From Catajapyx aquilonaris (Eukaryota): a stretch of 64,000 nucleotides of DNA. The first letter of the stretch is position 1; every line of letters starts with the position of its first letter. The notes beneath the pieces were generated by a model. It was not told the origin of the DNA and made no database searches. It worked only from the letters and a program-made list of their open reading frames with translations. The DNA lies in assembly GCA_000934665.2 (NCBI GenBank), contig KZ538148.1, forward strand, positions 62,001-126,000, read 5' to 3'. Positions 83 to 37,884 of this stretch are shown piece by piece. The position numbers and the translations under genes are program-made.

Positions 83-146
83 CCCCCCAAGCTGAACGTC
101 TACAGAAATGACACGGAGAGCTGGGACTTTACAAACCCCAACCTAG
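83..146 (+). CDS. HNRNPL: hnRNP L (smooth-like) internal exon, end of RRM2 region (PPKLNVYRNDTESWDFTNPNL)
   Basis: Pyrimidine tract plus CAG acceptor and GTGAGT donor at 147; peptide resembles the hnRNP L motif RLNV.KND..TWDYTNPNL. Confidence 0.9.
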
Positions 147-499
147 GTGAGTGCCCATTTACCAATTGGTTAATATTTTTTTTTTTGCTCATTTTTATCT
201 CCCCAACCTGTACCTCTCCCAGTGAACGTAAAGGTCTCTTTGCACGAGGTGATTTATAAACACATTCGTCATTTGGTGGAAACCAAATGCGAATTGTTAC
301 CCTAGCCAAATGAAGTGTACAGGCAAATCAGTCTGCCTGAGAAAACAAATCACCTCGTGTAAAGTGGGCTCGGTAAGGGATGACAGGATGACGTGGTTCT
401 GAAATGACATGTCCGCCCTTGGGAGTCTGTCAAGTCCAGTTGGTGCTGCTAACCTTGTGATCGCCATTCCTTTGTGTGATGAGCACGGAACCCCGGCTC

Positions 500-3400: not shown

Positions 3401-6400
3401 TATAATCCAAGTGGCCCATTATGATGGAAATGGAGAAGAGGTACTCCTCTGGTCCTTGCCTATATATATATGGCTGGCACACTGTATGTGAACGGCAGGT
3501 TCTCCACCGTGGATGCACGCATTACCAATTTGATTGTTAGCCCTCGAGGGTTGCCGCTCATTAATCCCGGAATGTTTTTTCCCCCCCCTTACCCCCCAAT
3601 GTATGTGTATTTACCTGCGTGGAAAATACCCTCCAGTGCCCAAACTCGGCTTGATGGGCGGGTCCGTTGATCTGCAATCATTTCCCAAATGGAGTAATTG
3701 AGAGGTAGTAATTAGTAACCAGCATGTTCTGCAAGTGACTAGTTTTTTTATTTAAAAAAATATTGCTCTGATGCATGAAAGGAAATGTGCAACTTGACCA
3801 CCAGATTCGATTGGTGCTTGCATTTTGTACTTGGTTTGGGAATGCGGGCGTTGTCGCTAGCATAGCTAGGAAATAATCTTCTCTAATGAGGCCCCCTAGC
3901 AGTACACTTGCTGTGCACAGCACGGTCATGGCCTGCAGGATCGGTATAGCTGTAGGCTGCTGTCATTAACGTCTGACTGCACATTGGGAACGCCAGCGCA
4001 GTGTATACGCCAACGAACGACGCCGCTTTTGCAGGGTCAAAAAAATATTCCTTTTGCAAAGTTATTGAACAGGCCTGGCCGCCTATTGAGAAATGTCACC
4101 AGTCAGCTGTCGTCGGGACCGTTTCTGTTTAGTAATAGCTGTTAATTAGCCTCCTGACTCTCTTTGCACCAACTCAGTGGCCCCCAGAATCGATAGGAGG
4201 GGGGAGTCCTCGCCTTGTAATTTGCAATTTCCCTTCTCCCCCTCCCCTCCCCGTCCCCCCCCCTTCCCCCAGCCTGTTCTTTCTGTGAATTATTATTCCA
4301 TGCACGAGGCCGGCTGGTAGGAAATAAACGGCAGGAGTATAGGCAAAGAGCAGTGGCGCTGATGGCCCTGGCTGGCTATGACTTCATCTAGTTCGGAAGA
4401 GATTCCATTCTAGCAGAATTGCAATCCCCGGCTGGAACGAAAGTCTTGATGTTTCTCGGCACCGAAATTCTTGCGAGTAGTACTACTCTTTGCCCCTCAT
4501 CATCATCTCCAGCTGCTGCTCCCACTTTAATCTGCGAATCCTCTCCCTAAGCAAGCCCCTCGGTTCCTTTCTTTGGGTAGGCCGCAGAATTACGCGGAGG
4601 ATTGTGCACTTTGGTGCGGCATAACTGCTCGGGACTTGGGAATTGCATGTCAGGAGCAAGTTGGAGGACACGCCGTCGGGTTCATTCGCCTACATTTAGC
4701 GTTTTATTCGCATTGTGTGCATTGCACATCGGGGGATGTAGCTAGCAGCCGTCTACTCTTCTGCGAGTTGCGTTTCTCTGGCCATGGCCTGACTCCGCAC
4801 CTTTCTGGGGTTGACACAAAAATTGCCGGTAGTTATCCAGTGGGGTTCGGTGGCCGTTGTGTGCGGGATTACAAACAGTATATGCAGGCAGAATGGTCCC
4901 TTTGAAAGGCCGACTGTAAGGAAACAAGTTGACCGCCTTTTGTACCAGGATAAATCCCCCGATTCTGGGTCGTGCAGGCTCCCAACTTGGACTTAATCCG
5001 ATGGAATCCGTAGAACCGCCGCCGGGGGGTTTGCGACATTGTGTCGTTGCAAAGAGGGGCGCACTTGACCCAGTCTGGCGACAGTTTGCGCCAATACAAG
5101 TGCGCAGGACATTGTTAATAGCCTGGCCCAAAGTGGGGGTCGCTATGATAGGCAGGGTTAAACAGTCGGCGTGTAGTTGTAGGGCCAGATATTCATCTTG
5201 GACCTTTGTGCCAACGTCCTCATTTGACATTCAGCAGTGGCAGCCAACCCGGCCTTAAGAAAACAGCGCGTGAGTTCCCCGGGACACTCGAGCTTCTCCT
5301 TCTCCAACAAGTGGAGTGGAATATCAACAGATGAGATCTTTCCGGGAAAGTTATTGCTAGGATACAACTGGGTGTTTGCTTTGACTTTAGGCAAATTGAC
5401 TCGCTATTGGCGCTTTTATTGCGGAGAGATGAAGAGAGCAGCGCATCGATTCCCGCCACCTACCTGCCTGCCTTTGCCTTACCTTGCAGGAAGCTGCAGG
5501 AACAAAAGACAGGCTTCCTGTTAACCGCCGCTTGTTTCAGCCCCCTCTCGGAAAATAATGAGCAACTTGATCTGCTTGTGCCGGATCGAAAAAGACGGCA
5601 GCAGCTTTTTCCCCCCTCAACCCACCCACCCTCGCCCGTGTTTTCCCGGGAGAGCAGGAGAGCCCATCTTCATTCATGCCGACGAATAAACGAATTCGGC
5701 AGTTGATGAAATCTCCATCGTGTTCCTCCTGTCGACGCCCGACTTACTTAAAAGCCTCCGGATCAGCTTTGCAAATGGCGAGTCCTATTCCCCGGATGCG
5801 CTCAACCATTTTCCGGGACGCATTATCTTACGGGGGAGGCTGAGAGAGAGAAGGGAAGAGGGGGGGTGGGAGGCTCTTTTAGTCATTCGAAACCAAAGCG
5901 CGGCGAGGAAAATCGGGGTTCGGGGTGCACACAACTAGTGTTGTTTCCAGCCGAAAATACGGCAGCCGCTTCTGATCTTTGTTTGCTAATCCATAACTTG
6001 ATTTGTGTTCCTCACCCGCCCTGTGACTTGTGCGACAAGAGCTTCCCGTCGACGCTTTGCTCACGAAGGGTGCTAGTCCCAACTTCATCTAACTGCATGC
6101 CATTTTCTATCACTCATTTGTTCGTACTCTAAAGGTGCACTCAAAGTACAGTACAGCTGATGTCAGAAGTTGAATGGCCTTGTCAGTGTTCTTTATTTTA
6201 CCGGATATTTTAAATTAAAAAATTGCTGGAGCTGCCCACCATCGTGATTTTGAAGTCAACAACCGGATTTTTTCCCCCGGATTTTGAGTGTAGGCAAACT
6301 CCACGTCACTTTTTTGCCACCGCAGCTCCTTTCAGAGTAATTGGCGTCACATAATATCGTGGCACTTTCATCATGGTAAGGTTTTTCATCGCCACCTTTC

Positions 6401-9400
6401 AAAATGCACATTTAGTGCTGCTTCAGGCACGTGAGCATCTGCCAGCGTCCTCGCCGAACAGTAAAAAATTTCCGAGGTAGCTGTCGACCTGATTTTTATA
6501 GGCGGGTCCACATGATAAGTGTCCTAAAGTAACCTCCTAATAATCCATCCTTTCATAATGGAAAGTGTATTTGTGTAACTATAGACAGCAGCTTCCTGCA
6601 CGAAACTCGTTGAAGGTTCTAGAAAGCCTTGCTGCTTTTTTTTTGACACAAGCAAGTTGATTAGTTGCTGATCAATATCGAATTCTTGAAAGTTTGCAAC
6701 ATCGTGGAATTTTTCCTGGGATCCCTTGAGGGGGAAGCACAGTTGAGAGTTGACCCTGGGCCCAGAACTTTCTTTGTACCTTAACAAGTTTGCTAATAAA
6801 TAGCGGGTTCTTTGACAGCTTTGAATCTATTACGTCCTGATGCCCGCCAGCCTTCAACTGAGGTCGAGGGAAGGGTCAGAAGAATGCATATTAATGGCGT
6901 GTCATTCGCAACGCCTTGGGTTCTAATGGAGGCATCAGGGAGACATTTGACCTGTCAGAGTGCGCCAACATTTTACAAATTCATATCGCCTACTGAATGG
7001 GCCCACCATCTGTCGGGACATTTAGACTGTGAAAAAGAGGAAGGAGGTGGAAAAAGGAAGGAAAGGAAAGAAATTGTGGGTCCTGATTGTCAGGATAGGG
7101 CGAATCTAGGATAAGTGTCGATTCAGCATGTCTTTTACAAGCCAGATGTTAGATTTGGTAACAGGTGGAGTTCAGTTTCCACGTGATGGGATGAGATTNN
7201 NNNNNNNCCCCCCCCCCCCCTCCCTATACGATGGAATTACGTGTGGGGGATCCTGAAAATTACTTTGATGTACGGGTCTGATTATGGGAATAAATGTGTG
7301 CCGCAGTCACGTGGCCAAGTTTGGAAATCTTATTTAGCCCGGCCGCGTCGGGTTGATTACTTGTCGAGAGCGCTTTTTTAGCTGATGCCGCTCCATGTAG
7401 CTCAGGCTTCCTTTTACTGTGTGCAGAGTGCGTCAACCGTGTGAAATTGATTAATTGCTGATATGTTTGTTTTCATGGTTCAAGTTATTCAGGTGGAAAA
7501 TGTGCGGTTAAGTTTTATTTATTGCCATTTTGAGTCGTACATGGAATAGCGCTTTATTGTTCAACCACGAAAAACACGTCCTCGTCGCGACACACAACTA
7601 TCGATCAGCAAAACGTAGTAGTGGAGGCATATGTTTTCATTTCATTAGCAGTGTTGGCATCGCTAAAGTACATGTTGTGACGTAGACTAGATTTATAGCT
7701 AGCTCTCCTTCAGTTGCTAAAGTGGCACCAGAAACAGTTTTACAGTATAGTAAGCTGCATGAAACGTGTAACTTTTTAAACCGTACAGTGCTCAGCTTGT
7801 TATAAAAGCGACTCTCTGGAACCAAGCGGTTAGGTCAGTGTTTCAGACTCTAAAATTAGTTTCTTGAACTGGTGTAGTAAGCAAATTAGAGTGGGAGGGA
7901 GGGAAGGGAAATTAGTCTGCTGATGTGATGTGTGACTCTGAGAGGTGGCACAAGTCACAAGGTCGAGAAGTGACGACAGTAATTTTTTTTTTCTGAATTT
8001 GTTCAACATGTACGTCTACACCCTCGTTTTATTTGTCTAATATTTCAAGCTGTTTTTGCCGCTGCGGTGAGCTCATGGAAATTGCCTGTACCTACTGTGC
8101 GAGATATAAATCTCTCAACTAGGTGCAGTTTTGAGAATTTATTTTTAAGTGGAAGCAAGCAGGTAATTTGTACCAGTCGTCGTTAGGGCTTAAATTACAG
8201 ATCAGGAGATATTTATCGATTAAACGGATATTGCCGAACGGTTAACGATTGCACATGGCAGATAGGAACTCGAAGGGCAAGTTTAAAAACGCATAATTCT
8301 CCAGGGAGTAAAAAAGATGGGACAGGGCAATGTAAACAGCACAGTTTCGTCTTGGTCAGGTTTGTTGCCAACGCACTTGGGAAGGTTGATGACTAATGGT
8401 CCAGCTTTGTAAATACTGCAACAGCAGTGTGGTTCTACTCCATCCAGTTTTCCCTGGAGTAGCCTATGGCACAGTGGCTAGGATGTCGGGGAGGGGGCGC
8501 TCAAATGCCGGATTCATATAAGGCGGGAGCAAGTTGATTGGAATTCCCATCTGCGAAGAGTTAGGGCGACAGTGAAAGCGGCGGGGAGTAAATATAGGAC
8601 GCTTGTAAAGGGTTAATTGCAGAATTCCATTTGTCCGGGGGGGTGGTCGGGGGAGGGGTTGGATGGAAGTCATCCTGCTGGCAAGAGTGGCCATCCTTTT
8701 CTTTTGCTCGGTATCTCGGCCGTTTTGCCAGGGAACGAGCCGGGGGGACGCGGCCCAGGCTCACAATGCGACTATAAATTTGAAATAACGCATCCGATGG
8801 AGGTAATAGCCTACTGCCCCACCTTCACCTCGGATACGAATAACCCTTGTTTATGGCCAGCTCGGGGGGAAAGTTGGACGCCCCCCTCCCCTTCCCTCTC
8901 TCCCCGGCCAGACAACATCTTAGGGATGCTGCTTTTAATCGGACAGGCACGAGGAGAATTTTGAGACGTGTATCTCTGTCGGTGACGCTTTGTCTCGCTG
9001 TCGTTCGAGCTCATTTCTCGCAGTCGGCATCCGGAAGGGTGTCGAAACGGCTTCAAGCGGTGCACTCATGTAGTGGCGAATCAGGCATCTCTAATTACGA
9101 TTTTTTTTTCTTCGTTTCGTTCCACCCTCTTCTACTTCTTCTCGCCCACTGCATGGCTCCTTTGTTTTCTCGGGGGCCAACCCTCCGTGACCAACCATGC
9201 CCCCTTGAGAGCCTTCCAGAACAGGATTTATTGGCTGAATTCTTGCGCTTTGTGTCCCGAGGTGGAGAGGCCGAGCTCATCACCATGTAATGGCCGCCTC
9301 GCCAAAATAAGGCCGGGTTGGAGGTGATTCATCCCGTCCCAGAATAAACTCCTGGCCAGTCAATCGGGGGAAATGCGGCCTTGTGCCCTGGCCCAGCTTG

Positions 9401-10830
9401 TACAAAACGGCCCCCGCATTGCTTCCGTATGGAATGCAGGCGCAGTTTCTGCTGGTTGTTTACTAGCGGTCAGCCAGGAAATGCACAAACCCTGTGGGCT
9501 GCTGTGTTCTTTTCGGCACTCTCGGAAGGAGACAAAAAAAAGAAAGAAAAAAAACAGGGGTTGGGGAAACTTGTGGAGAAGTTCGATGAAGCGGTTCCAT
9601 AACAAGCTGACGGCATGACGAGCCGGCAGATGGGACAAGGAAGGAAAGTGGAGAAAGGCCCGGGAGCCTTGCCAACCAAACTCGCATGTATTCTTCCTGC
9701 TCTTTTTTGCCCACACTTTCTGGAGACAAGGCTTGCCCTAAATTTTTCTACAGTATGCAAATAGTATGCAAGTGGGAAGAGGACTTGTTTGCCTCTTGTT
9801 GAGCCAGGGATTGTGAATCTCCTGGGATGCGCACAGGTCATCTAACCCGGCCCCCTTTTTTTGCGCTGGAGATTTTCGGGCCTATTAATAGGGACGAGCA
9901 GTTAAGTAGGATGTAAACATAACCTAATTCCTGTCGCGATTTTAGTGCCCTGTTTTCCCCCTGCATTCTCACATAACTTGTCGAGGGCGTGCCTGTAGTT
10001 GGCTTTTTTATATAATAGGTTTTTTTGCGCCAGAGGTCACAACCTGTACCTTAGGGAAAGAGCACTGTGCACAGCGGGCTTCTCCGTCGCGCCCGGTTTG
10101 CAAATTAATTGCTCGTGCAGCTCCCAGAACACTGACGGGGGCCAAAGCATATTACACTCATAACTCAACTTCAGCGCCTTAATTTGAGGCCCTTAATCAC
10201 TACCTATTGACAGGCAGTACTGCGTGTTACCCCGAGAAAGCCGCGAAAACAATCCAGACCTGGAGAATTCCAGGACTGTGGAAGTCGAACCACTTGGACA
10301 AATTCTGGCGGTCGGGGCATTGTCTTTATTAAAACGAGGGGATATGATTGTGGAGGACGCGTGCCTTGGCGTGCCTTAGCGGAGGGTTGCATGGGTCGTC
10401 ATCAAAACGACAAGGGGGATGCTCTTGAGCCACAAGACGGTCCTGCTGGCGTCTTCCCAAGGAAGGAAACGGAGGGGGGTGTGTGTTAAAGGGGGGGAAA
10501 TGCGGCTGTCATTTTTGGAGGGAATTATGCCGTCTTTTTCTGCTCCTAGAGTGGCGCGCCAGTCCTGTCGCGGGATAATTTGCTTCACTAGGCAAGTTAC
10601 ATGGGGAAGTGGTGGTGATTTAAGTTGGGTGCAGGCGGTTCGAAGGGATTCCGATGAATACAGTCGGAGGTCAAGTTCCGGTCGAAGCACAAATGAATGA
10701 GGATAGACGAGGAACAGAGGCCGACATTTGGAATGATAATGATAATAATTGGGGGAAATTTTTGAGTCTGTATGATGGTGGGCGGAAGGTTTGGAACCAG
10801 TGAATTCGTTTGGTGGCGGTCTTTTTGGTG
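500..10830 (+). other. Giant intronic RNA hairpin I (arms ~500-2050 + 3500-5070 versus 5110-7150 + 8500-10830)
   Basis: Colinear antiparallel helices, e.g. 514-523/10811-10820, 682-690/10397-10405, 908-915/10135-10142, 1214-1223/9860-9869, 1384-1394/9725-9735, 1798-1805/9354-9361, 4511-4519/5598-5606, 4906-4912/5250-5256. Confidence 0.75.
2553..2949. mobile_element. Tc1/mariner-type MITE
   Basis: ~29-bp TIRs cagggttgttccgaaggttgtgggaaaac / gttttcccacaacctttggaataaccctg, with TA/CA flanks. Confidence 0.75.
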
Positions 10831-11519
10831 TGGAAATGAAAGGAAAGTTTAAAAAGAAAACAGTGAGCACAAAGATAGCTTGATTTTCTAATTGTGGTTC
10901 AAGGAAGTCGTGGCCAGATGATTAAGAGCCCAGCGGGGACGGCCTGAAATCCGTGAACCTGAATTATTACTCGTACTCATTTTGCATCAGAAAGTAACGC
11001 AGTAAAGTAACGATTGTAACGTTGGACGTATTTTCTTCTTTTGACTTAGTGGTGATGATCTTTTAGCCCACTTTTTTGCGGGGTGCCTTTCATTCCGCCG
11101 CCAAAAGACTTGCCGCCAAAAGATGCATCGGTTCCAACCCTCTAGTCTCTCAGCTTTTCGTCTTGCACAGGAATATTAGATGGGTTTGACAGCCGTGGGC
11201 TTGAGGTGGTGGTGCTACATTTTTCAAAATGCACCTTGGTCATGCATGGTAGCTGTAAAATCATAACATAATTCCAACTGCTGTAGGTCGTTGTTGTTTG
11301 TACCAATGCAGCCTGTAGAACTACGCATAGTATTCCTGGTTGTCGTGCCTGGATGATTAAAATTGTTGTGGGGTTGGCCACCGAAACCAGCGGTTGTAGG
11401 TGACTGATTTGTGAGAGTTTGTGTGTGTTGTTGTGCGTTTTTGCTGTTATTATTATTTTGTACTAATAATAATTCACTATTCTGTTCCTCATTTTTGAAC
11501 GCAAGGTCGAAAGGAATGT

Positions 11520-12356
11520 TTGTGTGCCCCCTCCCTGCTGCACTATTTTTGCGAGGTTTAGGAGCATCTGTGTTATTTGCGGAATTGTTTTGATTGGCCA
11601 AGGGCTCTATTCCACGTGCCGTTTGCGTGTGGACCTTCCACTACAGCATAGGGGGAATACTTTTCTCGTAGACGCGATTACTGGAGTACCAGCCATTTCG
11701 TGACAGGTACAAGAACGGCACCTGTGGGAAGCTCGTTTGAAACTGGCTCTCTCTTTTATGTTGTGGACTTTTTAGGGGTTAGTCCTTCTGCGAAGATGTG
11801 AAGACACAGAAGAGGGTGTGCGTACCGTTGCGACGTCGGCATGGCCCACCCACAAACCTGGAAACCTTTCTTTTTCATGATTTCAACTAACCTTCTCCGC
11901 CGGTATATATAGCTCGGTTCAGGTTGCAAAGAGCAGAAAAAAAACCATGTGAGATGAGACACTACACAGAGGTGATACCGTAGTTCCCACTCACAGACCC
12001 GCCACACTTCCAAGGGACATGAACCACAGAACAAGGAAGACAATTCGGAACACCACAAGCACATTGAAGAGTCACCAGGGAGCTGACAATGGACACGAGC
12101 CTCAACAACTCTTGGGGGAACTAACCTTCAACAGTCCACAACAAGACGCAACCAACAAACCAATCAAATAAATAGATAAATAAATAAAATAAAACCGCCA
12201 CAAGCGCCGGAAGCACAAAGGAATGGGGTTCAGAGCTCACTTATATCCCCCCTGTGGACTGTATAAGAGCATGCTCGTGTGTGAAGTCTGCAAAAAAATA
12301 TATATATTAAAAAATCGAAAGAGAAAAATTTAACTCGGGGGTGAGCAAGAGAGGCA
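11520..12356 (+). other. Intronic RNA hairpin II enclosing CA-rich tracts
   Basis: Nested helices 11544-11567/12271-12296, 11642-11655/12248-12263, 11760-11783/12120-12142. Confidence 0.7.
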
Positions 12357-12591
12357 ACTTTGTGCCAATTGTTGAGTAAAGATTCCGCTCCCCAACCTGA
12401 TGTTGTGCTGCTGCAGCTGCTGCCGCACACGGCTGTGATGTGTATTTATACATGTGACTTTCCATTTGCACAGGCCCGGCCGAGTTGAAGTTAGGCCATT
12501 GTTTGATGAATCTGATGGGCGGATAAAACCCCGGAGGCATTTGCGGCTGTGGAAGTTGCGGCCCCCTGCTGGCTGCATGCTTTTTCCTCAG

Positions 12592-12683
12592 GTTCCCAAA
12601 AGCACTGCGCAATTTTTCACTCCTTCAAACGGGGTGAAGACGGCCAGTGTCCCTCATTTCCTCTAACTCGTGTGGTGCTACAG
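12592..12683 (+). other. Candidate 92-nt frameshifting (poison) cassette exon of hnRNP L
   Basis: gctttttcctcag acceptor, CAG|GTAATA donor, length not divisible by 3; lies between hairpins II and III. Confidence 0.45.
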
Positions 12684-12754
12684 GTAATAATCACCTCCTG
12701 TGTAGCTCTCATCTCAATGGGGATTAGTGTATAGGGGGATGTGCTGTTTGCTTT

Positions 12755-15700
12755 TGAGTTTCCAGGTGGCTACTTGAGGGCCGCGGTTGTTTAAACCGTA
12801 TATCGCAATGAATCCATGACCTGCACGAAGCCTGTCTCGCAAGTTGTCCCCCCAGCAAAACTGCTGCTGGCTTTTGACTATTTCCTCTTAAAAGCTAGGG
12901 CGACCCCATGTCAAGCAGGTCCTGTGTTTGACAGGGTTGAGTTTGGGGACGTTAGCTTTGGCCTGCACAAAGCGAGAAAACAGGGGGTCTGCGGCTGTGG
13001 TCGACGCCTCCTCTGCCACTGCCTCCCTCTCTCCCTCCCTGCCTCCCTCCCACTCCCACCCCCGCCATCCCCCCCCCTCCCTTTTTCCCTGCAGTTGGGA
13101 GACGTCGTCGCCCTTTTCTCTCCGCATCGGTGTGAATGATAGGATATTGTCTCAGCTCCACCCCTAGCCAGCAGCTCAAGGATTTGGGTCTTTTTTTCTA
13201 GTGTCATCCCTGGTTGAGAGTGGTCCCTTTGCGTTTTCATTCGGGCAAATTAGCTTTGGAAGCATTGTCCAAGTCCGCTTTGTGTGGATTAGGCTTTAGA
13301 CAGTGAATGATTGCGCAGGAATATTGTGATAATTTGTCACTTTTTATGTAGCATTACAGGGCGGGTTTTGGGAGTGCGAATCTCCTCTTTGGCTTTTAAA
13401 AAAATGGCGATGCTAGAGGCGATGTTGGCTGTTTAGGGACAGCCACGTAAAGGCGCCCTATGGAACGCCTGCTAGGTGGGCATGATCTGAAGGCGAGCAA
13501 AGAGTGTTGGCAAGTTGCGAGTAAGTTAACCGCCATCACGGGGCGTGGGTGGAAGCGGTGCAGGCCCCTTTTATAACCCATTAGGCAGGTCCCAAACGCT
13601 CTTGGTAGTCGCATTGCAGCCCCCGTAATCGAATATGAATATAAATGAAGCTTTCCTGCGCTATTGATTTGCCGGCGATAGGCAGTGGAGCAATTTCCGA
13701 AACGCTCCTGTTGGCAGGCAGCGAGGAGGTGGCGCGTTTCCTTCACTCTGATCCCCAATTAAAGCTTCCACAAGAGAAATGAGTTATAGTGGGCAGGTCA
13801 GCAGATGCAGTTCAACTTGAGCGCCATTATACTACCTCCTGTAACATGTTGTTACGGCCCGGACTATAGGATGCTTTTGCCGGGCTTTTTTTTTTTTGCG
13901 TGCCGTTATTCCTACGGCCGTATTTACAATCATGTAATATGGCTAGGGGTAGTGACAGGAGTACGTCTGCCACAAAACCGAATGGGATGAAAAATGGAAA
14001 TGAACCACTGTTTGATGATGAAAATATTAGCACGTGTTCACATATTCCCGGGAGCAAATATTGTGGCCGGCAAAACGCCCCCAACCTCACCCGCTGTCCA
14101 TGTGAGCTCGCCCACCTCCCATTTCATTAGTTTTAGTTAGTTATGAATTTATCACCGCGGATAAAATCTCGGCACGATTAGGTTCAGTAGATTTAACGCT
14201 ATTTCCAGGCTGTTCACTGGCCGTGAAATAAGCCGGTTCAAAACTGGGAGTATGCATTGTGTGGGATTGTGTAACTGGATTTGGGTGATGATTGATCTCA
14301 GACGTCATGTCGGTAGGGCGATTACTTAATTGTGTGTTTTTTTCAACAACCCCCCCCCCCCCCACCCCCCTGCGTGTGGGTACAGGTTGGCTGTCGTGTA
14401 GTCGACCTGCCTGGGCTCCAGGTTTTTGACTGCCGGAGAATGTTTTCATTTGTAGCGCGATTACTTAAAATGCCAGGCGACGACTGGATCGGTGCCAAGC
14501 AGTTTGTGGGAAAATAAGAAAAATGTGTCGGAAAAAAGTTGGACGGTCGTAACTGGACGGGGTGAAAACTAAGAATTCTTCTTTTTTTTTAAGGGGGCGG
14601 TAAGGGCGGGATTCTTGAAAGGAAAAGTGGATGGCTTGAGGGCCAGTTTCAATCACCCGGGGATTCCTTGGCGGAGTAGTAAAATCTGAGAGTGCAACTG
14701 AACTTTGCCAATAAAAGCCAAAATAAGGCTTTAAGGGAGTGGGTTTTATTGACGCCTAGGCTGTACACTAGGTGCCATCAAGGGAGAGAAAAAGTAAGAG
14801 CTTTATCGGGTTTCCCTGGAGTTCGGAACTTTTTTCCTGAGCCTAGATCTATAGGCTGGTAGCCCCCACATGGCAGGATTTGAAAATACGTTTGAAGGAA
14901 GGGGAGAGAAAGGTGAAGGGGATTGCTTGTAAGCACGAGTCGGCAGAAAAGTTTTCGGCACTGATAATTTATTTACCTTGACGGTAATTAGCAGAGACGC
15001 TGGGGAAGGATGTGGGGGTGCTCTCAAGAGAGGATTTGTCTCTCGTCTGTTGTTTCTGTCGGTCGCCGACTGCACACTTTTCTGTGGGCTTCCAAAAAGC
15101 CTGTCCGTTAAGCCTGTCTTCAGCCCCCCCACCAAACTTTTCAGTCTAAACCAGTCCAAAGACCTGGCCCCTCAATACTTTGCTACCAGAGTCTTATCTA
15201 TTCAGTGCTGCCTGCCCCTTTTTGTTTCTGTTACACCATCTCTTGAAAAGCAGCGGTGTCGTTTAGAAATAGTGGTGCTCCATAGCATGTTCTGGTACAA
15301 TATGGATTTGGGCAAACAAAAAAAAATGCCCAGGCTTTATTATTCCGAGTTAATTAACCGGACTGGCAACATGATCCACCAGTGGGCCATGAAACAATCA
15401 TCAAACGTTTTTAGTGTCCACATGACAGCAATGTTCCAGCCAGGTTATTGTACTCCGTTGCCGCACCTCCTCCGTCATTAAAATAATAGTTTTAACGCTT
15501 TAGGAGCCGTGATCCTTTAAGAGGCACCCCGCAGGTGGGCGAATACTGGCGGTACGCTGCTGTGTTCTTCCTGCCAGCAAAAATGTGGATTCCGGTGGCA
15601 GTGTAATCGTGTCGTCGTTTCATTACAAGTGCAGCAGTGTAATTGCGGCCGGTTCATTAAAGAGCCGTGCAGGGATAAGGGAGAGTTTGTTGTGTGTACC

Positions 15701-18700
15701 GCGAGGTGACGTGGGAAGGCAGTGCGATCGATAGCTGAATGAAACACGGGAGAGGATTGGACGGCGCAAGTTTGGGAGAGAGCTAGGGAGAAGGAGGGAG
15801 GGAGAGGGAGAGAGAGAGAGATGGTTTCCCCAACTTCTGGAATGGAAATATTTCCCGCAAAGTTGATACGACTGGGTGTGCCCTAACTCAAATTGGAAGG
15901 TGTGCGAGTAAGGGATGAATGGCGTTAGCCATTGCAGATTAGAGAATGGATGTTAGCCGTGTCATGTGCACGTGTGACTGAACAGTCCAAAGTCGTAACT
16001 AGGGCAGTTTAATTCACACATGTAAGCCGGCGGTTTCCGTCTTGACACCTGCAGGGTCGTGTTGGCAGCGCACCGAAAATATCGGATTTGTAATCGCCGG
16101 CTTTCACGCCATAACCTTGTATAAATAGTCCTGCCTGAACAGGTTTCCACCATTGTGGCCGGCACCACATACACGCCTGATGGAATAATCTGCAGAGTGA
16201 AATGATATGTAATCATTGGACGTGAGTGGAGCGGAAAGGACTTGCTTGCTTCCCCCCTACCCCCTGGTTCCCCCACCGTCACTCTCCTCTTTCCTCCTCC
16301 TCTCCCCCCTAAAAGATAGAAAATGAGATTCCAAAGCATATTGGCAAGTACAGTAGGCTAGAGGCCCCTGCAGCCTTCATCGAGATTAGGTTTGGTTCAG
16401 TGAATGGCTTTGGTGGGGGAAGTAGGAAGCGCGCCGACTCCGCCATTGATGTGCACCAAGCCATGGAAATTAAACAGGGAGCCTCCCTGCTTGATTCCTT
16501 AGACAAACACACACGGGGAATGGCGGCAGCTTGCAGAGCGCGTGCAAGACCCGGGGACAGATCGGTTGGGGGCTCGGCAAATACCCGCCAGGCAATCACC
16601 AATACCACTTATTGGGCTTCGGGGAGGACGAACAGCCGGCCGGGATGGGTGCTGCCAGCTTTTTTACCCACGCTATATTCACCAATCCGCTACCCAATTC
16701 ATTTTCACAGGCTCATTTTTACCGCTGCGGGCTTTGTCGGCTTTGTCATTTTCACGTGCAATAAAGAGGGTGGGTGTGCGGTGCACTTGTAGCGATTATT
16801 GTCGAATCCTTCCATTTGGACGCTTTGGTTGGGACGGGGGTGCTTCAAAATTGGAGCTTGCGCGCACCTCTGCACGGGGAGGGGGCCACTGAATTTCGGA
16901 GGGTGCTCGTGGAAATCATTGCGGGCTGTTGCCCATGGAGGGAGGGAGGGAGGGTGGGTGGGTAGGGAGGTTTTACCAATATCTGCTGCCCTGTTATAAC
17001 ATTTCAACTTGCAGTTTGATGTCAGGGCCTCATTTGTTCCCATTAACATGAGGAGGCTTGTACGCAGGGTGTGAAGTGTGGATCATCAATGGCGTCCGGT
17101 AACCATGTTGGATCTCTCTGGACTGTTTTAGCATCAAAAGTTATGCTGAAAGTGAATTATTACAAACTGGACATCTTCCATCAGCGTTCCATCTCGAGAC
17201 TCAGATGATTGGTCGGTCTTCGGCACTACTGTATAGTAAACGAATTGGGTGCATTCAATTGGGTGCATTCAAGTTCAGAGAGACATTATTTTAATCTTGG
17301 ACAGTATATACGCATACCTACTTCAGCAAAAGCGATAAATAGCTGACCAACACCATTGTGCATGCAGTGTTTTGAATCTGCAATAAAGGCAATAGTTATT
17401 GAAACCATTAAACAGGTTCGTAAAATAGATTAACAACCATAAATGGGCAGGATATGCGTTGGAAGGTTTGGGATAGCAGGAAAGGGTGGATCGGAAGTTC
17501 TCTCCAATAACTTAGAAATAAATGGCTTTATTGAGGTTCATCGGGTAGAGTTTCGCATGTCTGAGGCAGCACGGTGGTTTAGTGGTTAGCGCCACAATCT
17601 TGCACGTCTGAGATCCCGCATTCGATCTCCGGATGGAACTTAGAAAGGAATTTATCATGTGGAAATAGTTTCGATAGATTTTCTCCGGAGTCGCGTGTTT
17701 TCTTGGGGTTTTCCCGTGTCATGCCACAATATAAAAAAATCCATCACCATTGAGTATGAGCGATTAGAGTCGGGATTCAAAGGAGGATCCCACAGGCCTC
17801 TCAGGGGATACAATGGAATTGTAAGTGGGGAAATAAATGAAGTTGAAGAAGTATAGAATTCATTGATAATTACGAAGCCTACAGTTTCTTTTCCTGAAGT
17901 GTCACTTATGTGTATAGACGATTATTTGCAACATGGGGTCGAAAACTAGTACTGTCCAGGCATTTTTGTCCTGTGCAGCATGCTCTACAACCAGGTTGCT
18001 GAAACAATTTGCGAAGAACATAAGGCTAGCCTAAGAAACTGGCCCACATAAGGCGGCTTAATATAGGGAGTCAGTTTCGCCTATTGAGTGTGTCACCCTG
18101 GTCTGTAATATGGTAGATGGATTTTAATAAGTTTTAAGAAAACAGCGAACTTCATGATCAGCTCTCCCCACAGCCCCTCACGCACGTCATTAAACTTCTT
18201 CCATTCCGTTCCCGTGGTGCAAAGTGAGAAAAGTGCAAAAGTGTGTGAATAATGGACTGCGTGAAAAAGTAAAGAGCATGAACCGAGTACGTGACTTCTT
18301 TGCCATCCTATGTCCTTTTTTGCTCGTAATCCTGGCGAGGGGTGGCTTGAGAGCCTCCAGTGACGCCCCTGAAAACATAAACATAAATTAAAACTGTTTG
18401 CAAACTCAGAGAGGTTACGGCATAGGCCTACTCGAAAATGCCGCGCATTTTGTTTTTTTTTTTGCGAACTGACTCTCTTTTTTTGTTGCCGTACTTCTAG
18501 CCTCCACACTTCACATCCATTTTTTACTCGACAGGGAATGTGATTTCCTTTAATTTTGAGAATGTTGGTTTAGGAATGAGCCATTCGACAGGGCAAAGAA
18601 TGACACGAGTCCCGGAAATTAGCAGGCGAGTAGGAATGGAAGTTGGAAAAGAAAGTAATCGGCAGGAGGCCTATTCCCCCCAAGAAGTGTGAAAGTGGTA

Positions 18701-21700
18701 CCGGCGCCTATCCCTGAAGACAGTTTTGATGCGCGGGTTGCAGTATTCCCTTCACCCCCTTCGTAACCCCCCCCCCCCCTCTTTCCAAGCACACCCAACC
18801 CACCCACCCTCCCCTTACCAACCCATCTGCGGTGGGGCCCCCATTTATTACGCCCCAGCTCGAAAACTCCGGATCCCCAAAGGCCACTGCAAATCGATGT
18901 CCTATTGATTTCAGTTGGGGGGAAGCGCTACCGAGCGGGCCTTGCCGAGGAGGCTTCATTTTCGGCTGTTACGGAGGCAGGCCCATTGGAATGGGCAAAT
19001 GTCAGGACATAACAGGTGACATTCAGCACTGCAGCACGTTCTTCTTCGGGGTTTTTTTTTTCCACCCCTCAAAAAATTGGAAATGAGCCCGGTCGTAAGA
19101 AGTTTTATAGGGGGTATCATCAGGCGAGTGTCCCCTTCCAAATGGCTTCCAGAATGTCCGTAGCAGGCCGACAAGTTGGTGAAAGAAATATGCCGTGACC
19201 ACCCATAAGTGGCGGGAGGCATGTCCCCTAGAATAAGAGGCTTCGGACCACACTCCTTACGAATCGCTCATTAGCTTGGGCGGAGACTTGATGGGGCCAT
19301 CTGTAACAGACGGTGCCCGGTGACGCAGATGTGACACGGGGAGTCCTGAGGTGACATTTCCTCTTCAGCGGGGCAATGCATGACCGGCCTTTTCAAGTGG
19401 GCACCACTTGGCGACACCCTTTTGTTTCCCCGGGCACGAATTTTCAAAACTGCGATGGCTCTCGTTTTAAGAGCGGTATTAAGGGGAGGTGGCGATGGAT
19501 CATTTTGGGTGCGGCGAGGTGAAAGAGTAGATAATTAGTCGTACAAATGACCAGAGTGTACACGGTGTGATTGGGGGTATGGGTGCTCGTTTGCCTAAGT
19601 CAACAGCGTCCGAGTGTGTGACGTTTAGGGGCATTTTGAACTAATTATGGCCTAAAGGATGGGGGGTTGGGAGTATGCACCTTGAGCTGACTCTTCTGCC
19701 ACATCTTTTATGGTTCGTGACTTAATTGCGTCTTCATCACGTCGATGGAATGGGCTGTCCTTCCGACCCTAGGGCTTTTTACCACTCTTATCTAAAATTG
19801 GAGCCATGAATACTTTTATCGTGTCATTTAGGTTTCAGAGAGTAAATGAGTTGTTCTGGAATTGTCTATGGGAAAACCTGCCGTCTGAATTTTTTCCCCC
19901 CTTTTCCTCGGTTGCTTGTTCCCCAAAACTTGTGGAGCGCATTTTCTCCACTTTTAATTTCCTCCGCGTTCATGATTTGTGCATCAGCATACAAGCGCTA
20001 GCGTGCCTTGTGATTGCGGGAAATTTATACCCAGAACTCGTCCTTCAGGAGAGATTACGGAAATGGTGACAGGTCAAAGGTAAGCCAGCTCGCTTGTGGG
20101 GGTCTAAGGAATTTGGCTGTCGAAACGGAAGCGGAAGGCCGCGAAAAGAATCGCATTCCCCATGCAGAAGGGAAGCAAGCTCTTGTCATAAATCACCGAG
20201 GTCGCCTTTTGTAGCCTGTAATAGACCCCGGGTGATGGAGAACACAAAGTGAGGACCATTGGATTCTCCTTTGCCCTTCTCCCGAGTTTTGCATGCCACG
20301 ACACTTTACACTAGGCGGCAAGACCAGACGAGTTCATTTTGAAGGGGAAAGCTGGTTGGAAAAGGGGTCCAAGGCTGGAAGGAAAATGCATTACGGCATT
20401 GGTGTCGCCTAGCACTGGAGCCTTGGACTGGACCAAACCCAGGGGGAATTACCTCTCCTTCTTTTGGCCTGCCGTAAGAGGAACGCAATCTAGCCGTCAC
20501 TGTATGTCCGACGAGGGGTGTAGCATGTCTGGAATGCCAACAGATTGCCTCGCCCGCGACAGAAAACCTGCCGCCCTTTTCTCTCTTTTTTTCTCTCTCT
20601 CTCCCTATTTTTTTCGCCTTCTCTTGTGCCCTTCTTTTATATCCCCCAAGCTTCCCCACTACACGCGATGTAGACCAATTTTAGGAGTTTGCACCACGTC
20701 CCAACTCGTAACACTTTTTTGCCTCCCTTTTTTGGACCTATAGATTTAAACCGCTCAAGACGAAGCGTTACGGACACTTGGAATACATGAAGGTTATCCC
20801 TTCTCCAGCGGGGGGGTTTTCTCTCTTTTTTTGGGTCGGGATTTGGCTTATCTACGCCTGGTTCTTGCAGTCGTGGCAGCCCTCCCGATTAGGAAATGGA
20901 CGGGGATTATTGGATTTAGAGCGCGGCGTCTGAGGGGTTTCTCGCATATTAGCCCATTAGGCGCCCGCCAAGAACATACCTGAGAAACTCGAGGCAGCTC
21001 AGTATACTAGTCGAGGTTTCCCATTTAGTATATACGGCGTGTTGGACTGGTGCGCTTAGGCGAGAAATGTAGTTAGGACAGGTTAAAATATGCTCCGGTT
21101 TCGGAACTAGCCGTTACGGGTCGCTTGTTGTTGCTTCTAATTTGTGGGGCATGGTTTGTAGTGTCATGGTTTAGTGGAGGGTAGGCGGGGGAGGGACCAT
21201 GGAGGGAGGGAGGGAGGGAGGGTAAGCGCGTGATGTTGGACGACCCGGTTGGGTTAGCAGAGATGGGGAGTGCGTGAGAGGGAGACAACCAGCTATGAAA
21301 TACAACACTGCGGGCGGTACTTAGCGGGAGATAATCCGATTTCAACCGGCGTCCAATAACCAGCCATGTGGCACTTTCCACTTGCATGGGCTTTGGTGCT
21401 TATGGCCTCGACTGTGTCCGGTCCGCTCTTTTTTGTTGTAGTCAAACTGGCCGTGACCGGAGCGGCCGGGAGGGGGGGNGGGGGGAAATTTAGTGGCGGA
21501 TACTATGTCTTGAGCGTGTAGTTTCCTTCCGAGTCGATGCTTAAATTAACGGGTGTTTCCAAGTGTGATGTTTGTGTGGATTAGCGGTTTTAACGAGTGG
21601 CGGCTGTGATCAATGGCTGAGGTTTCCTTTGCTCGGCAAGTGAGGTTCCTTTATCCTGGCTCTCAGCTAACTTGTGCACCTCTCTTGTCGTGCAGGAAAG

Positions 21701-33677: not shown

Positions 33678-33810
33678 GGAATGAATCCCTTCGGGGTGGA
33701 CCACAGCACTTCAGCGGGGGCAACGATCGCTATGAAGATGGTTATGGGATGCCTCATAATGGACCAGCTCCATACAACAATCACTACGGTGATCGATTCG
33801 CCCCTGAAAG
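33678..33810 (+). CDS. HNRNPL: hnRNP L exon, Gly/Tyr-rich linker (GNESLRGGPQHF...FAPE)
   Basis: ttccttcctacag acceptor, GTAAGA donor; phase 1 matches exon 83-146 and phase 2 matches the next exon. Confidence 0.8.
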
Positions 33811-34315
33811 GTAAGAGATATGCAGAGCCTTGATGGATGCTTACAAGATCCAGTTTTAATATTCGTGGCAAGTTACTATTTTTAGTGCTTTTTATTGCTT
33901 CACATTGAAGGCTATGTTTTCGAGTGTCAACTCCGCGAATTTTTAAATAAGTTATAACAGTTACAGTTACAGCAGCCGTTTATCAGGGGGCTCTAATGCG
34001 TTTCCCACACAGGATTATGCATATTGTGAGCATAAATTATAGCAAAACAGGTCATAATATGCTGCATGCTAAATGCTATATGACCACAATACACATTATG
34101 TTCCAACTGAATTGTCCATATTAGCGAAATTGCTACTGAGCTGCTAGTTTTGAAGAACTTGAACAGTTATTATTATGGACTAGCAAAAAATGTTAACTAG
34201 TAACATTAGGTTGAATGGTCATCTTGCTGACTACCACAGGGGAAAGTTTAAGCTGTTAAAAAGTACGTAACACGTGACCTCGTATGCCAGTGGTTCCAAG
34301 TGGGTTGTTTTTAAT

Positions 34316-34561: not shown

Positions 34562-35116
34562 AATGCCTTTTAATCGCGGAAGTATATTTCAATTCGGGGT
34601 TGCAACAGATTAGTATCAGTCATTATTTTTTTACAGTTTCTTGGGGACAGCAGACTTTTGAATTTATCAAAATATTAGCTTGTATTATTATGGCAAATTG
34701 GAGTATTCTTGTAAACTGCTGCAGATGCATCTCGACTCTGAAAGATGGTTCAGATATTTACCTCAGTGCCAGTGTGTCAAAATGAGACACTGACAATGTC
34801 ATGAGCTGGGAAATTATTTGCAATTCAAGGCCTAGGGGCCATAATTAACTAAAAGTAACTGCTTAATCATAAGCAACTTAGTTTTTTTAATAAAATTGCT
34901 TACCACTAGGGACATTTCAATTGGAACATTGCATAGTTGGGAGAGCATTTGAAAACTGCATTGAGATGGGAACAGCACAGCATGTGCACCTCCTGCTAGT
35001 CATGTGGTTCAGTTCAAGTTAGCTGTTGCACATTGAATTCTCTTGGACCACTGCCAGAACTTTACTGGTGTCGTACCTTCTTGGTCCACAACATACATGT
35101 GTTCTGAATCTTGCAG

Positions 35117-35393
35117 GGCTGAACCAAGAGGTTTGCTGGCCCGTTACGGTGGCGGAGGTGGTGGGGGAGGAGGTGGGGGAGGGGGAGGGAAAGAAGAGTT
35201 CCGCAATGGGCCCTTACGTTCATCTCCCCCTCGGCCCGCGGGCTATGGCGGGGCCTTGGCAGGCCCGGCCCCTGCAGGCACCCCTGGAGTCCCTCAGCAA
35301 GGTGCCGTCATGATGGTGTATGGACTCAATGCCGACAAGATGAATTCTGACCGCCTCTTCAATCTCTTCTGCCTGTATGGCAATGTGGTCCGG
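35117..35393 (+). CDS. HNRNPL: hnRNP L exon, Gly/Pro linker and start of RRM3 (VMMVYGLN..MNSDRLFNLFCLYGNVVR)
   Basis: Diagnostic hnRNP L RRM3 sequence; ttgcag acceptor, GTCAGT donor. Confidence 0.95.
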
Positions 35394-37772: not shown

Positions 37773-37884
37773 GTGCTGCACTTCTTCAACACGCCCCCTG
37801 GACTGGATGAGGACAATCTGTGCAGCGTGTTTGACACTGCTGGTGTGAAGCCGCCCAAGACAGTCAGGCTGTTTCCTTCCAAAA
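37773..37884 (+). CDS. HNRNPL: hnRNP L exon, RRM4 (VLHFFNTPPGLDED...LFPSK)
   Basis: LHFFN motif of RRM4; CAG acceptor, GTGAGT donor. Confidence 0.95.

What the first reader, a model, noticed from the sequence alone, without database searches (positions are those of the whole stretch)
11300..12356. Hairpin II displays CA-rich tracts and has mutually exclusive alternative pairings
Seen: CA-rich sequence at ~11940-12100 and 12140-12210 lies inside nested helices, ~400 nt upstream of the candidate exon. A GU-rich tract (11400-11460) and 11589-11597 (tttgattgg, exact complement of 12160-12168) could pair with the CA tract in a register incompatible with 11642-11655/12248-12263. Established: hnRNP L binds CA-rich single-stranded RNA. 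Inference: a protein-sensing conformational switch.
Basis: partly seen in the sequence, partly recalled or inferred. Interest (0 to 1): 0.7.

Follow-up and report, generated by a model that had tools for sequence, protein, structure and literature searches.

The report
CA-rich tract in hnRNP L intron
The CA-rich stretch is real and lies inside a huge intron of the gene for hnRNP L, a protein that binds CA-rich RNA, so it is probably a self-regulation site like the one known in humans; the proposed hairpin switch is no better than chance.

Summary
The sequence facts are correct: the CA-rich tracts, the GU-rich tract, the exact 9-nt complement and the imperfect 11642-55/12248-63 pairing all exist. 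The structural reading fails every test I ran. Both named helices have pair probability <0.01 in a partition-function fold. The region folds worse than its shuffles (z +1.4 to +2.2) and worse than 33 of 37 other same-size windows. Complementary 9-mers, GU×CA duplex energy and the longest inverted repeat (11 nt) all match chance.

The window carries an invertebrate hnRNP L gene on the + strand. The finding lies 11.7 kb into a 30.9-kb intron (147-31013), after the 64-nt exon ending …TNPNLG. The tract at 11850-12210 has the highest CACA/ACAC density in the 64 kb and is predicted to be open in local folds.

In 6 of 7 informative hnRNP L loci from other invertebrates, the most C+A-rich sense-strand window of the whole locus lies in an intron flanking this same exon. 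The G+T control gives 1-2 of 7.

Best reading (about 0.42): an accessible hnRNP L-binding cluster for autoregulation, as in human HNRNPL intron 6, and not a switch. The candidate 92-nt exon shifts the frame but is one of 29 equally good pseudo-exons. No RNA data were available.

The parts
83..146 (+). hnRNP L coding exon (64 nt), PPKLNVYRNDTESWDFTNPNL(G). It ends the RRM that corresponds to the end of human RRM2 (correspondence recalled). 5' splice site CTAG|GTGAGT.
   Evidence: tblastn of eight hnRNP L proteins gives 62-78% identity. Junction and reading frame were checked.
147..31013 (+). 30,867-nt intron of the hnRNP L gene. It contains the finding.
   Evidence: Splicing 146 to 31014 restores …TNPNLGKPEPPSGRPGPLLKEP in frame. 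No other hnRNP L exon was found in between by relaxed tblastn.
480..650 (+). (CCA)n-rich cluster about 330 nt downstream of the exon. It is the most C+A-rich place in the window.
   Evidence: C+A is 0.725-0.745 and there are 35 CA dinucleotides per 200 nt, rank 1 in the window. Sequence read.
11250..11460 (+).
   Evidence: TG dinucleotides rank 2 in the window (31 per 200 nt at 11261). TGTG|GTGT rank 2 (13 at 11401). C+A is 0.335.
11589..11597 (+). 9-mer tttgattgg, exact complement of 12160-12168.
   Evidence: Present. Pair probability <0.01. 9-mer complements are at the chance level.
11642..11655 (+).
   Evidence: An imperfect duplex of -20.1 kcal/mol is possible. Pair probability <0.01 in the ensemble.
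11850..12210 (+). CA-rich cluster (core 11940-12210). Candidate hnRNP L binding platform.
   Evidence: Highest CACA|ACAC density in the 64 kb and second-highest C+A and CA-dinucleotide density. Local unpaired probability is 0.63-0.68 (0.82 for 12140-12210) against a mean of 0.45. No other copy in the window. No Pfam hit on overlapping ORFs.
12166..12193 (+). (AAAT)n simple repeat that ends the CA cluster. It carries AATAAA hexamers.
   Evidence: Tandem Repeats Finder: period 4, 6.8 copies.
12260..12450 (+). Second UG-rich tract, downstream of the CA cluster.
   Evidence: TG dinucleotides rank 3 in the window (29 at 12381). TGTG|GTGT rank 4 (10 at 12261).
12592..12683 (+). Candidate 92-nt cassette ('poison') exon, ctttttcctcag|…CTACAG|gtaata.
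   Evidence: Inclusion shifts the frame and gives TGA 14 codons into the next exon. It is only 1 of 29 acceptor/donor pairs of equal quality in the intron. No RNA evidence was available.
31014..31091 (+). Next hnRNP L coding exon, (G)KPEPPSGRPGPLLKEPIFPNAPAPY.
   Evidence: tblastn matches to the RP.LL.EP motif. Splice sites read. Frame checked.

Best explanation
The finding sits deep in a 30.9-kb intron of an invertebrate hnRNP L gene, on the sense strand.

The 350-nt CA-rich tract (11850-12210) is most likely an open, single-stranded cluster of hnRNP L binding sites in the protein's own pre-mRNA. A (CCA)n-rich cluster at 480-650 lies in the same intron. When hnRNP L is abundant it would load onto these clusters and divert splicing of this intron to an unproductive outcome, lowering its own synthesis. 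Inclusion of a frame-shifting cassette exon such as 12592-12683 is one candidate outcome.

Shown here: gene identity, strand, intron position, extreme CA density, predicted accessibility, and recurrence of sense-strand CA clusters beside the same exon in other invertebrates.

Inferred: binding by hnRNP L, any effect on splicing, and which exon is used.

The hairpin and alternative-register pairing play no demonstrable part.
For: Gene and position:
- RRM-coding exons on the + strand match proteins that sources name hnRNP L; 262 proteins had E<=0.001 among 478 candidates.
- The exons hit Pfam RRM_5.
- Splicing 146 to 31014 is in frame.

CA density and openness:
- 11941 has the top CACA|ACAC count of the window, and 12001 the second-highest C+A.
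- The tract is the most accessible 200 nt of 10500-13500 under local folding.

Recurrence in other species (43 metagenome loci with the homologous exon; 7 were informative because the flanking introns make up less than half of the locus):
- The single most C+A-rich sense-strand window of the whole locus lies in an intron flanking this exon in 6 of 7 loci (L014, L018, L025, L028, L031, L032; not L033). Expected 1.1-1.3, P about 2e-5 to 5e-5. The result is stable for 100-200-nt windows and is 5 of 7 at 300 nt.
- The G+T control gives 1-2 of 7, P 0.23-0.73.
- L018 and L033 share a 137-nt intronic block at 86% identity. It is the CA-rich cluster and ends in CAG|GTGCGC.
- Contig L016 equals transcript L007 up to a CAG|GTGGGC site and then continues into sequence with C+A 0.68.

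Literature (passages read):
- The Drosophila homologue Smooth is linked to CA-rich motifs (PMC5694756).
Against: - The cluster is 11.7 kb from the nearest coding exon in an intron that makes up 48% of the window, so its location there is not significant by itself.
- UG-type clusters of similar strength occur at five places on the same strand, so low-complexity islands are common here.
- No close relative was available. blastn of window 1-34000 against the 43 loci aligns only the exon, so conservation of 11850-12700 is untested.
- The candidate exon is 1 of 29 equal-quality acceptor/donor pairs on the + strand of the intron, against 16 on the - strand.
- Strict ACACACA-like sites are few: 5 in 11800-12210.
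- The cross-species region 'both flanking introns' was widened after I saw L031 and L032. The a-priori downstream-only test is weaker: 9 of 14 against 6.0 expected, P 0.047; 3-4 of 7 informative loci, P 0.004-0.047.
- The organisms behind the loci are unknown, so their independence is judged only from unalignable introns.
Confidence: 0.42

Rival explanations
1. Neutral low-complexity sequence. The UG-rich / CA-rich / UG-rich layout would be a decayed simple-repeat or compositional island in a very large intron. hnRNP L might bind it incidentally, but with no regulatory consequence.
For: - Large intron. UG-type clusters of equal strength occur at five other places, and G+T-rich windows are as extreme as the C+A-rich ones.
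- The tract ends in an (AAAT)n repeat.
- No detectable conservation or extra copies.
- The pseudo-exon is not unique.
Against: - On the sense strand of the gene, CACA|ACAC is otherwise depleted (260 against 455 TGTG|GTGT in 1-38400), yet the densest CA cluster of the whole 64 kb lies here.
- The gene encodes the CA-binding protein itself.
- Sense-strand CA clusters recur beside the same exon in 6 of 7 other informative loci, while G+T clusters do not.
Confidence: 0.38
2. GU-rich 11400-11460 and 11589-11597 pair with the CA tracts in a register that excludes helix 11642-55/12248-63. hnRNP L binding to the CA tracts would shift the equilibrium, giving a protein-sensing conformational switch.
For: - The complementary segments exist.
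- The ensemble does contain two competing GU/CA registers: 11410-32 with 12085-12107 (p about 0.58) or with 12138-49 (p about 0.30).
- UG-rich tracts flank the CA cluster on both sides.
- hnRNP L is known to remodel stem-loops in MALT1 pre-mRNA (PMC9348792 abstract).
- In one other species (L028), perfect 15-, 8- and 11-bp long-range helices enclose the CA cluster (z -3.25; 0 of 200 shuffles reach a 15-nt inverted repeat).
Against: - Both named helices have p<0.01.
- 9-mer complements, duplex energy and the longest inverted repeat are all at chance.
- z is +2.23 and +1.40 against shuffles, and the region folds weaker than 33 of 37 genomic windows.
- The CA tracts are open in local folds.
- Structure around the CA cluster is not a shared theme. 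Only 1 of 8 other introns has a significant inverted repeat, and L025, L031 and L032 have z between -1.1 and +0.2.
Confidence: 0.04
3. An intronic transcript end or start. One form is an alternative terminal exon with intronic polyadenylation at the AATAAA-rich (AAAT)n repeat (12166-12193), with the UG-rich 12260-12290 as the downstream element. The other is an internal promoter, given a TATATATAG at about 11906-11914 ahead of the CA tract.
For: - The sequence motifs were read.
- A reading from a hypothetical acceptor at 11914|11915 stops after 12 codons, as expected for a truncating terminal exon.
- hnRNP L is reported to affect alternative poly(A) site choice (PMC7547044 section 25).
Against: - The motifs are short and common in A-rich sequence.
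- The putative acceptor has a weak pyrimidine tract.
- No RNA data.
- Nothing comparable was looked for in the other loci.
Confidence: 0.08

Closest known systems
Human HNRNPL intron 6 CA-rich cluster with poison exon 6A (Rossbach et al. 2009, Mol Cell Biol 29:1442). The paper itself is not held; it is known here from passages in PMC7547044, PMC8652244 and PMC5175361.
   Same: - An extended CA-rich cluster on the sense strand of an intron of the hnRNP L gene itself.
- It lies upstream of a short exon-like segment whose inclusion would create a premature stop.
- By the flanking protein sequence, the intron follows the end of the RRM2-equivalent.
   Different: - The intron here is 30.9 kb.
- The cluster lies about 380 nt from the candidate exon, not immediately upstream.
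- The exon is not distinguishable from 28 other pseudo-exons.
- No conservation, binding, splicing or NMD data exist.
- Homology of the intron to human intron 6 was not tested.
- A second cluster sits near the 5' splice site.
MALT1 exon 7 stem-loops remodelled by hnRNP L and hnRNP U (PMC9348792, abstract read).
   Different: - In MALT1, short stable stem-loops contain the splice sites.
- Here the proposed helices span 500-600 nt, are absent from the predicted ensemble, and do not involve splice sites.
- The region is less structured than chance.
PTB (hnRNP I) autoregulation by skipping of exon 11 (as described in PMC7547044 section 14 and PMC5175361).
   Same: - In loci L031 and L032 the CA-rich tract fills the intron directly upstream of the homologous short exon, up to its 3' splice site.
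- The window's exon is 64 nt, so skipping it would shift the frame. That is the same logic of self-repression by exon skipping.
   Different: Only 82 nt upstream of the window's exon are in the window, and they are not CA-rich. This route was neither shown nor tested.

Membership tests
hnRNP L autoregulatory CA cluster / poison exon (human HNRNPL intron 6 type) | Lies in the pre-mRNA of the hnRNP L gene itself, on the sense strand | tested here: met
   Exons at 83-146, 31014-31091, 35190-35402, 36442-36591, 36861-37013, 37737-38045 and 38322-38378 match hnRNP L proteins on the + strand. They hit Pfam RRM_5. The junction is in frame.
hnRNP L autoregulatory CA cluster / poison exon (human HNRNPL intron 6 type) | Extended CA-rich cluster (hundreds of nt) | tested here: met
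   11850-12210: C+A up to 0.705 (z about 4). 12 CACA|ACAC per 200 nt, the maximum of the window. It is CA-rich rather than a CA repeat.
hnRNP L autoregulatory CA cluster / poison exon (human HNRNPL intron 6 type) | Same intron as human intron 6 | not testable with these tools
   No human gene structure could be consulted and the primary paper is not held. That the flanking peptide (…NPNLG | …RP.LL.EP) resembles the human linker is recalled, not tested.
hnRNP L autoregulatory CA cluster / poison exon (human HNRNPL intron 6 type) | Nearby short exon whose inclusion gives a premature stop | tested here: inconclusive
   12592-12683 (92 nt) shifts the frame and gives a stop 14 codons into the next exon. 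It is 1 of 29 equal-quality acceptor/donor pairs in the intron. No RNA run was listed.
hnRNP L autoregulatory CA cluster / poison exon (human HNRNPL intron 6 type) | Conservation of the cluster and exon across species | tested here: inconclusive
   No alignable relative of the window's intron was found. At the level of composition, 6 of 7 informative loci have their top C+A window in a flanking intron. At the level of sequence, L018 and L033 share the CA-rich block at 86% identity.
hnRNP L autoregulatory CA cluster / poison exon (human HNRNPL intron 6 type) | Direct hnRNP L binding and NMD of the included isoform | not testable with these tools
   Needs CLIP or EMSA, and RNA analysis with NMD blocked.
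RBP-remodelled RNA structure switch (MALT1 exon 7 type) | Stable helices populated in the ensemble | tested here: not met
   Named helices have p<0.01. z is +2.23 and +1.40. The region folds weaker than 33 of 37 genomic windows.
RBP-remodelled RNA structure switch (MALT1 exon 7 type) | Complementarity beyond what composition gives | tested here: not met
   9-mers: 2 against 1.8 expected. Duplex: -46.0 against -46.0 +/- 3.9. Longest inverted repeat is 11 nt, reached by 19% of shuffles and 23 of 46 windows.
RBP-remodelled RNA structure switch (MALT1 exon 7 type) | Binding sites masked by structure in the protein-free state | tested here: not met
   With local folding (span up to 150 nt), unpaired probability is 0.54 for 11940-12100 and 0.82 for 12140-12210, against a mean of 0.45. 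With global folding, 11940-12100 is 0.38 against 0.40 overall.
RBP-remodelled RNA structure switch (MALT1 exon 7 type) | Covariation supporting the helices | not testable with these tools
   No homologous intron sequence is available for the window.

The most novel reading that the evidence does not exclude
hnRNP L self-regulation through sense-strand CA-rich clusters beside the short exon that ends the RRM2-equivalent could be ancient and shared across invertebrate lineages. In some lineages the cluster would be gated by RNA structure: perfect long-range helices in L028, and a register-free UG-rich/CA-rich/UG-rich 'fuzzy duplex' in this window. The pre-mRNA would then sense hnRNP L concentration through competition between protein and self-pairing.
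Probability: 0.07. Interest if true: 0.75.

Novelty: new member of a known kind. Interest (0 to 1): 0.4.

Why it matters
hnRNP L keeps its own level constant in mammals by binding a CA-rich cluster in its own intron and switching on a poison exon. If the clusters seen here and in other invertebrate hnRNP L loci work the same way, this feedback loop is far older than the vertebrate sequences in which it was found. It would also be maintained at the level of composition and position rather than sequence, which is useful for understanding how autoregulatory splicing circuits evolve. Two searches of the held library found no paper describing this for invertebrates. The hairpin-switch idea would have been the more novel claim, but the evidence does not support it.

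Tried and rejected
- RNA evidence: the look-up of sequencing runs on 11000-13000 (kind rna) listed no RNA holder.
- Whole genome: none is held.
- Earlier findings: none by place, words or relatives.
- Rfam at gathering thresholds finds only a tRNA at 57981-58051 and nothing in the finding.
- Coding or transposable-element origin: six ORFs around the finding have no Pfam family. One has a sub-threshold hit of 14 bits against a cut-off of 40.
- A self-blast of 11000-13000 against the window finds only AAAT-type low complexity.
- Inverted-duplication origin is rejected. The best inverted repeats are 19 nt at 84% and 11 nt perfect.
- The primary paper (Rossbach 2009) and the iCLIP paper are not held.
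- L028 against L036 for covariation: L036 is 93% identical with many single-base indels. One paired A/T deletion keeps a helix and other changes break pairs, so I drew no inference.
- My first reading of the exon boundary (83-147, with an in-frame TGA inside the candidate exon; notebook entry 1) was wrong. It was corrected and notebook entry 3.
- Adjacency of the top G+T and top C+A windows in other loci (L018, L025, L039 by eye) was considered as a shared layout. I did not test it formally and do not rely on it.
Full report
WHAT THE WINDOW IS

The window has almost no long ORFs; only 2 of at least 150 aa overlap its first 30 kb. No whole genome is held for it.

One stop-to-stop frame at 35037-35468 contains an RRM. 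A protein search with it returned 262 proteins with E<=0.001 among 478 candidates. The named ones are annotated by their sources as heterogeneous nuclear ribonucleoprotein L or L-like, from arthropods and molluscs.

tblastn of eight of these proteins places exons on the + strand at these positions:
- 80-157
- about 30986-31102 (weak)
- about 33719-33811 (weak)
- 35190-35402
- 36442-36591
- 36861-37013
- 37737-38045
- 38322-38378

Three of the exons hit Pfam RRM_5.

Reading the junctions gives exon 83-146 (64 nt, CTAG|GTGAGT) and a next exon starting at 31014 (gatag|GCAAACC). Joined, they read …TNPNLGKPEPPSGRPGPLLKEP in frame. The finding therefore lies 11.2-12.2 kb inside a 30,867-nt intron of an invertebrate hnRNP L gene, on the transcribed strand. 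My first boundary (83-147, notebook entry 1) was off by one base and is corrected here.

CHECKING THE OBSERVATION

Every literal statement about the sequence is right:
- the C/A-rich stretches
- the G/T-rich 11400-11460
- the exact 9-mer complement 11589-97/12160-68
- the imperfect complement 11642-55/12248-63 (-20.1 kcal/mol with a bulge)
- an exon-like segment about 380 nt downstream, 12592-12683

The CA-richness is extreme for this window:
- C+A is 0.705 at 12001 against 0.481 +/- 0.056. Only 451-700 is higher among 1,277 windows.
- The CACA|ACAC count at 11941 is 12 per 200 nt, the highest anywhere (mean 1.45, sd 1.57; next 8).

It is CA-rich rather than a CA repeat. Only 5 + strand matches to ACACACA (up to 1 mismatch) fall in 11800-12210.

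The cluster is flanked on both sides by some of the most UG-rich places in the window. TG dinucleotides rank 2 and 3 at 11261 and 12381. TGTG|GTGT rank 2 and 4 at 11401 and 12261.

THE STRUCTURE CLAIMS

- No base pair of either named helix reaches probability 0.01.
- The GU tract 11410-11432 is predicted to pair with 12085-12107 (p about 0.58) or with 12138-12149 (p about 0.30). Competing registers therefore exist in the model.

The controls show nothing beyond composition:
- WC-complementary 9-mers between the two arms: 2 against 1.8 in 500 dinucleotide shuffles (46% reach 2).
- Best GU x CA duplex: -46.0 kcal/mol against -46.0 +/- 3.9 and -46.7 +/- 3.8 when either tract is shuffled.
- Longest perfect inverted repeat in 11240-12460: 11 nt (11759-69/12133-43). 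It is reached by 19% of 200 shuffles and by 23 of 46 other windows of the same size.

Overall stability is below expectation:
- z = +2.23 for 11360-12270 on the + strand, with 20 of 20 shuffles folding at least as well.
- z = +0.39 for the - strand.
- z = +1.40 for 11240-12460.
- 33 of 37 other 1,057-nt windows have a lower MFE; the GC-corrected z is +1.07.

With local folding (span up to 150 nt), 12000-12199 is the most open part of 10500-13500. Unpaired probability there is 0.63-0.68, and 0.82 for 12140-12210, against a mean of 0.45.

One predicted 15-bp interrupted helix (11311-26/12670-85, p about 0.95, -21.2 kcal/mol) overlaps the 5' splice site of the candidate exon.

THE CANDIDATE EXON

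12592-12683 is 92 nt, with a good pyrimidine tract and CAG|gtaata. In the correct phase it has no stop of its own. It shifts the frame, so a TGA appears 14 codons into exon 31014-31091, which is what a poison exon needs.

A scan of the intron at the same stringency finds 94 acceptors, 57 donors and 29 acceptor/donor pairs on the + strand, and 16 pairs on the - strand. Splice signals alone do not single it out. No RNA run could be listed.

RELATED SEQUENCES

A scan of metagenome contigs with an alignment of the exon peptide (A1) gave 43 loci. About half are intron-less, transcript-like contigs, and 22 looked genomic. None aligns to the window outside the exon, so conservation of the finding itself cannot be tested.

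I therefore asked a compositional question: where in each locus is the most C+A-rich sense-strand window?

Loci dropped before the count:
- near-duplicates: L011 and L012 (same junction as L013), L027 (= L024), L019 (like L020), L036 (93% identical to L028)
- L002, which has no intron at this site
- L030, L040 and L043, which carry little or no intron

A-priori target (downstream intron only): the top window fell in it in 9 of 14 loci against 6.0 expected (P 0.047). The G+T control gave 7 of 14 (P 0.38).

In L031 and L032 the top window of a 19-20-kb locus (C+A 0.785 and 0.74) lies in the 437-541-nt intron immediately upstream of the same exon, running up to its 3' splice site. I then widened the target to both flanking introns. 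I also restricted the count to loci where these introns make up less than half of the locus. That choice was made after seeing the data.
- Result: 6 of 7 loci (L014, L018, L025, L028, L031, L032; not L033) against 1.1-1.3 expected, P 2e-5 to 5e-5 for 100-200-nt windows.
- At 300 nt: 5 of 7 (P 7e-4).
- G+T control: 1-2 of 7 (P 0.23-0.73).
- Downstream-only on the same seven loci: 3-4 of 7 (P 0.004-0.047).

The introns of these loci do not align with one another, with one exception. L018 and L033 share a 137-nt intronic block at 86% identity that is itself the CA-rich cluster and ends in CAG|GTGCGC. Their second shared block is the RGAPLLADPR coding exon.

Contig L016 is 99.4% identical to transcript L007 up to a CAG|GTGGGC site. 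It then continues into sequence with C+A 0.68 and 35 CA per 200 nt.

IS STRUCTURE A SHARED THEME?

No.
- Of the introns tested, L028 is clearly structured. Its z is -3.25, with perfect helices of 15, 8 and 11 bp (3685-99/4077-91, 3775-82/4067-74, 3784-94/4055-65) that enclose its CA cluster. 0 of 200 shuffles reach a 15-nt inverted repeat.
- L018 1000-1700 has z = -2.79.
- L025, L031 and L032 have z of -0.34, +0.20 and -1.07.
- Only 1 of 8 introns has a significant inverted repeat; L015 is borderline at 7 of 200.

It is not what the window shows.

COMPARISON WITH WHAT IS KNOWN

The primary paper is not held.
[quoted passage not shown] This activates the poison exon and leads to NMD (PMC7547044 section 14; PMC8652244; PMC5175361).
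- PMC7547044 section 25 summarises iCLIP work: CA-rich sites upstream of cassette exons repress them and downstream sites activate them.
- PMC5694756 links CA-rich motifs to the Drosophila homologue Smooth.
- PMC9348792 (abstract) shows hnRNP L opening stem-loops that hide the MALT1 exon 7 splice sites. This is the nearest precedent for a switch.

The window shares the defining layout of the human case: own gene, sense strand, extended CA cluster, and a frame-shifting exon-like segment downstream. It lacks evidence on binding, splicing, NMD, conservation, and homology of the intron to human intron 6. The last point rests only on recalled similarity of the flanking peptide.

Two searches found no paper on CA clusters in invertebrate hnRNP L genes. 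Most subscription journals are not in the library.

VERDICT

| Reading | Probability |
|---|---|
| Accessible CA-rich hnRNP L binding cluster in the protein's own pre-mRNA, part of an autoregulatory circuit of the known mammalian kind | about 0.42 |
| Neutral low-complexity island in a very large intron | about 0.38 |
| Intronic polyadenylation site or internal promoter | about 0.08 |
| Conformational switch | about 0.04 |

Interest is moderate. The value lies in the cross-species recurrence of sense-strand CA clusters beside this exon, not in Hairpin II.

Noticed in passing
window 480-650 (+): (CCA)n-rich cluster about 330 nt downstream of hnRNP L exon 83-146. It is the most C+A-rich place of the whole 64 kb (0.725-0.745; 35 CA per 200 nt). 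It sits much as the CA clusters of L025 and L028 do, 130-190 nt after the homologous exon.
   Followed up: partly
L028:3685-4091 (and the related L036): Perfect long-range helices of 15, 8 and 11 bp enclose the CA-rich cluster and a following UG-rich tract in the hnRNP L intron of another organism. Intron z is -3.25, and 0 of 200 shuffles reach a 15-nt inverted repeat. L036 differs mainly by single-base indels, so covariation could not be judged.
   Followed up: partly
L018:1081-1216 and L033:7694-7825: A 137-nt intronic block at 86% identity inside otherwise unalignable introns of two hnRNP L loci. It is CA-rich and ends in CAG|GTGCGC, so it may be a conserved cassette exon or enhancer. In one possible reading it carries an in-frame TGA.
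   Followed up: partly
L031:8880-9112 and L032:9780-9997: The intron directly upstream of the homologous exon is almost pure C/A up to the 3' splice site and has no ordinary pyrimidine tract. These are the most C+A-rich windows of 19-20-kb loci (0.785 and 0.74). This suggests self-repression by skipping of the short frame-shifting exon.
   Followed up: no
L016:841-1106: The contig is 99.4% identical to transcript-like L007 up to a CAG|GTGGGC site. It then continues into sequence with C+A 0.68, as if an intron were retained. Its first 300 nt are also CA-rich (13 CACA|ACAC per 200 nt).
   Followed up: partly
window 11311-11326 with 12670-12685 (+): A predicted 8+7-bp helix (-21.2 kcal/mol, p about 0.95 in the fold of 11100-12700) covers the 5' splice site of the candidate exon 12592-12683. 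GTGGTGCTACA also occurs as a direct repeat at 11209-11219 and 12672-12682. Significance and dependence on the fold boundaries were not tested.
   Followed up: no
window 37500-37700 (+): A GT-rich microsatellite-like tract (22 TGTG|GTGT per 200 nt, the highest in the window) lies in the hnRNP L intron between exons 36861-37013 and 37737-38045. The sense strand of the gene is generally UG-biased: 455 TGTG|GTGT against 260 CACA|ACAC in 1-38400.
   Followed up: no
window 57980-58052 (+): tRNA-Ala (anticodon TGC), found by both ARAGORN and Rfam.
   Followed up: no
window 47060-47722 (-): A 220-aa open frame rich in Ser, Glu and Asp. It is probably a coding exon of a different gene on the opposite strand, downstream of hnRNP L.
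   Followed up: no
window 11906-11914 and 12166-12193 (+): A TATATATAG motif lies just ahead of the CA tract. AATAAA-bearing (AAAT)n lies at its end, followed by a UG-rich stretch. This is compatible with an internal promoter or an intronic polyadenylation site.
   Followed up: no
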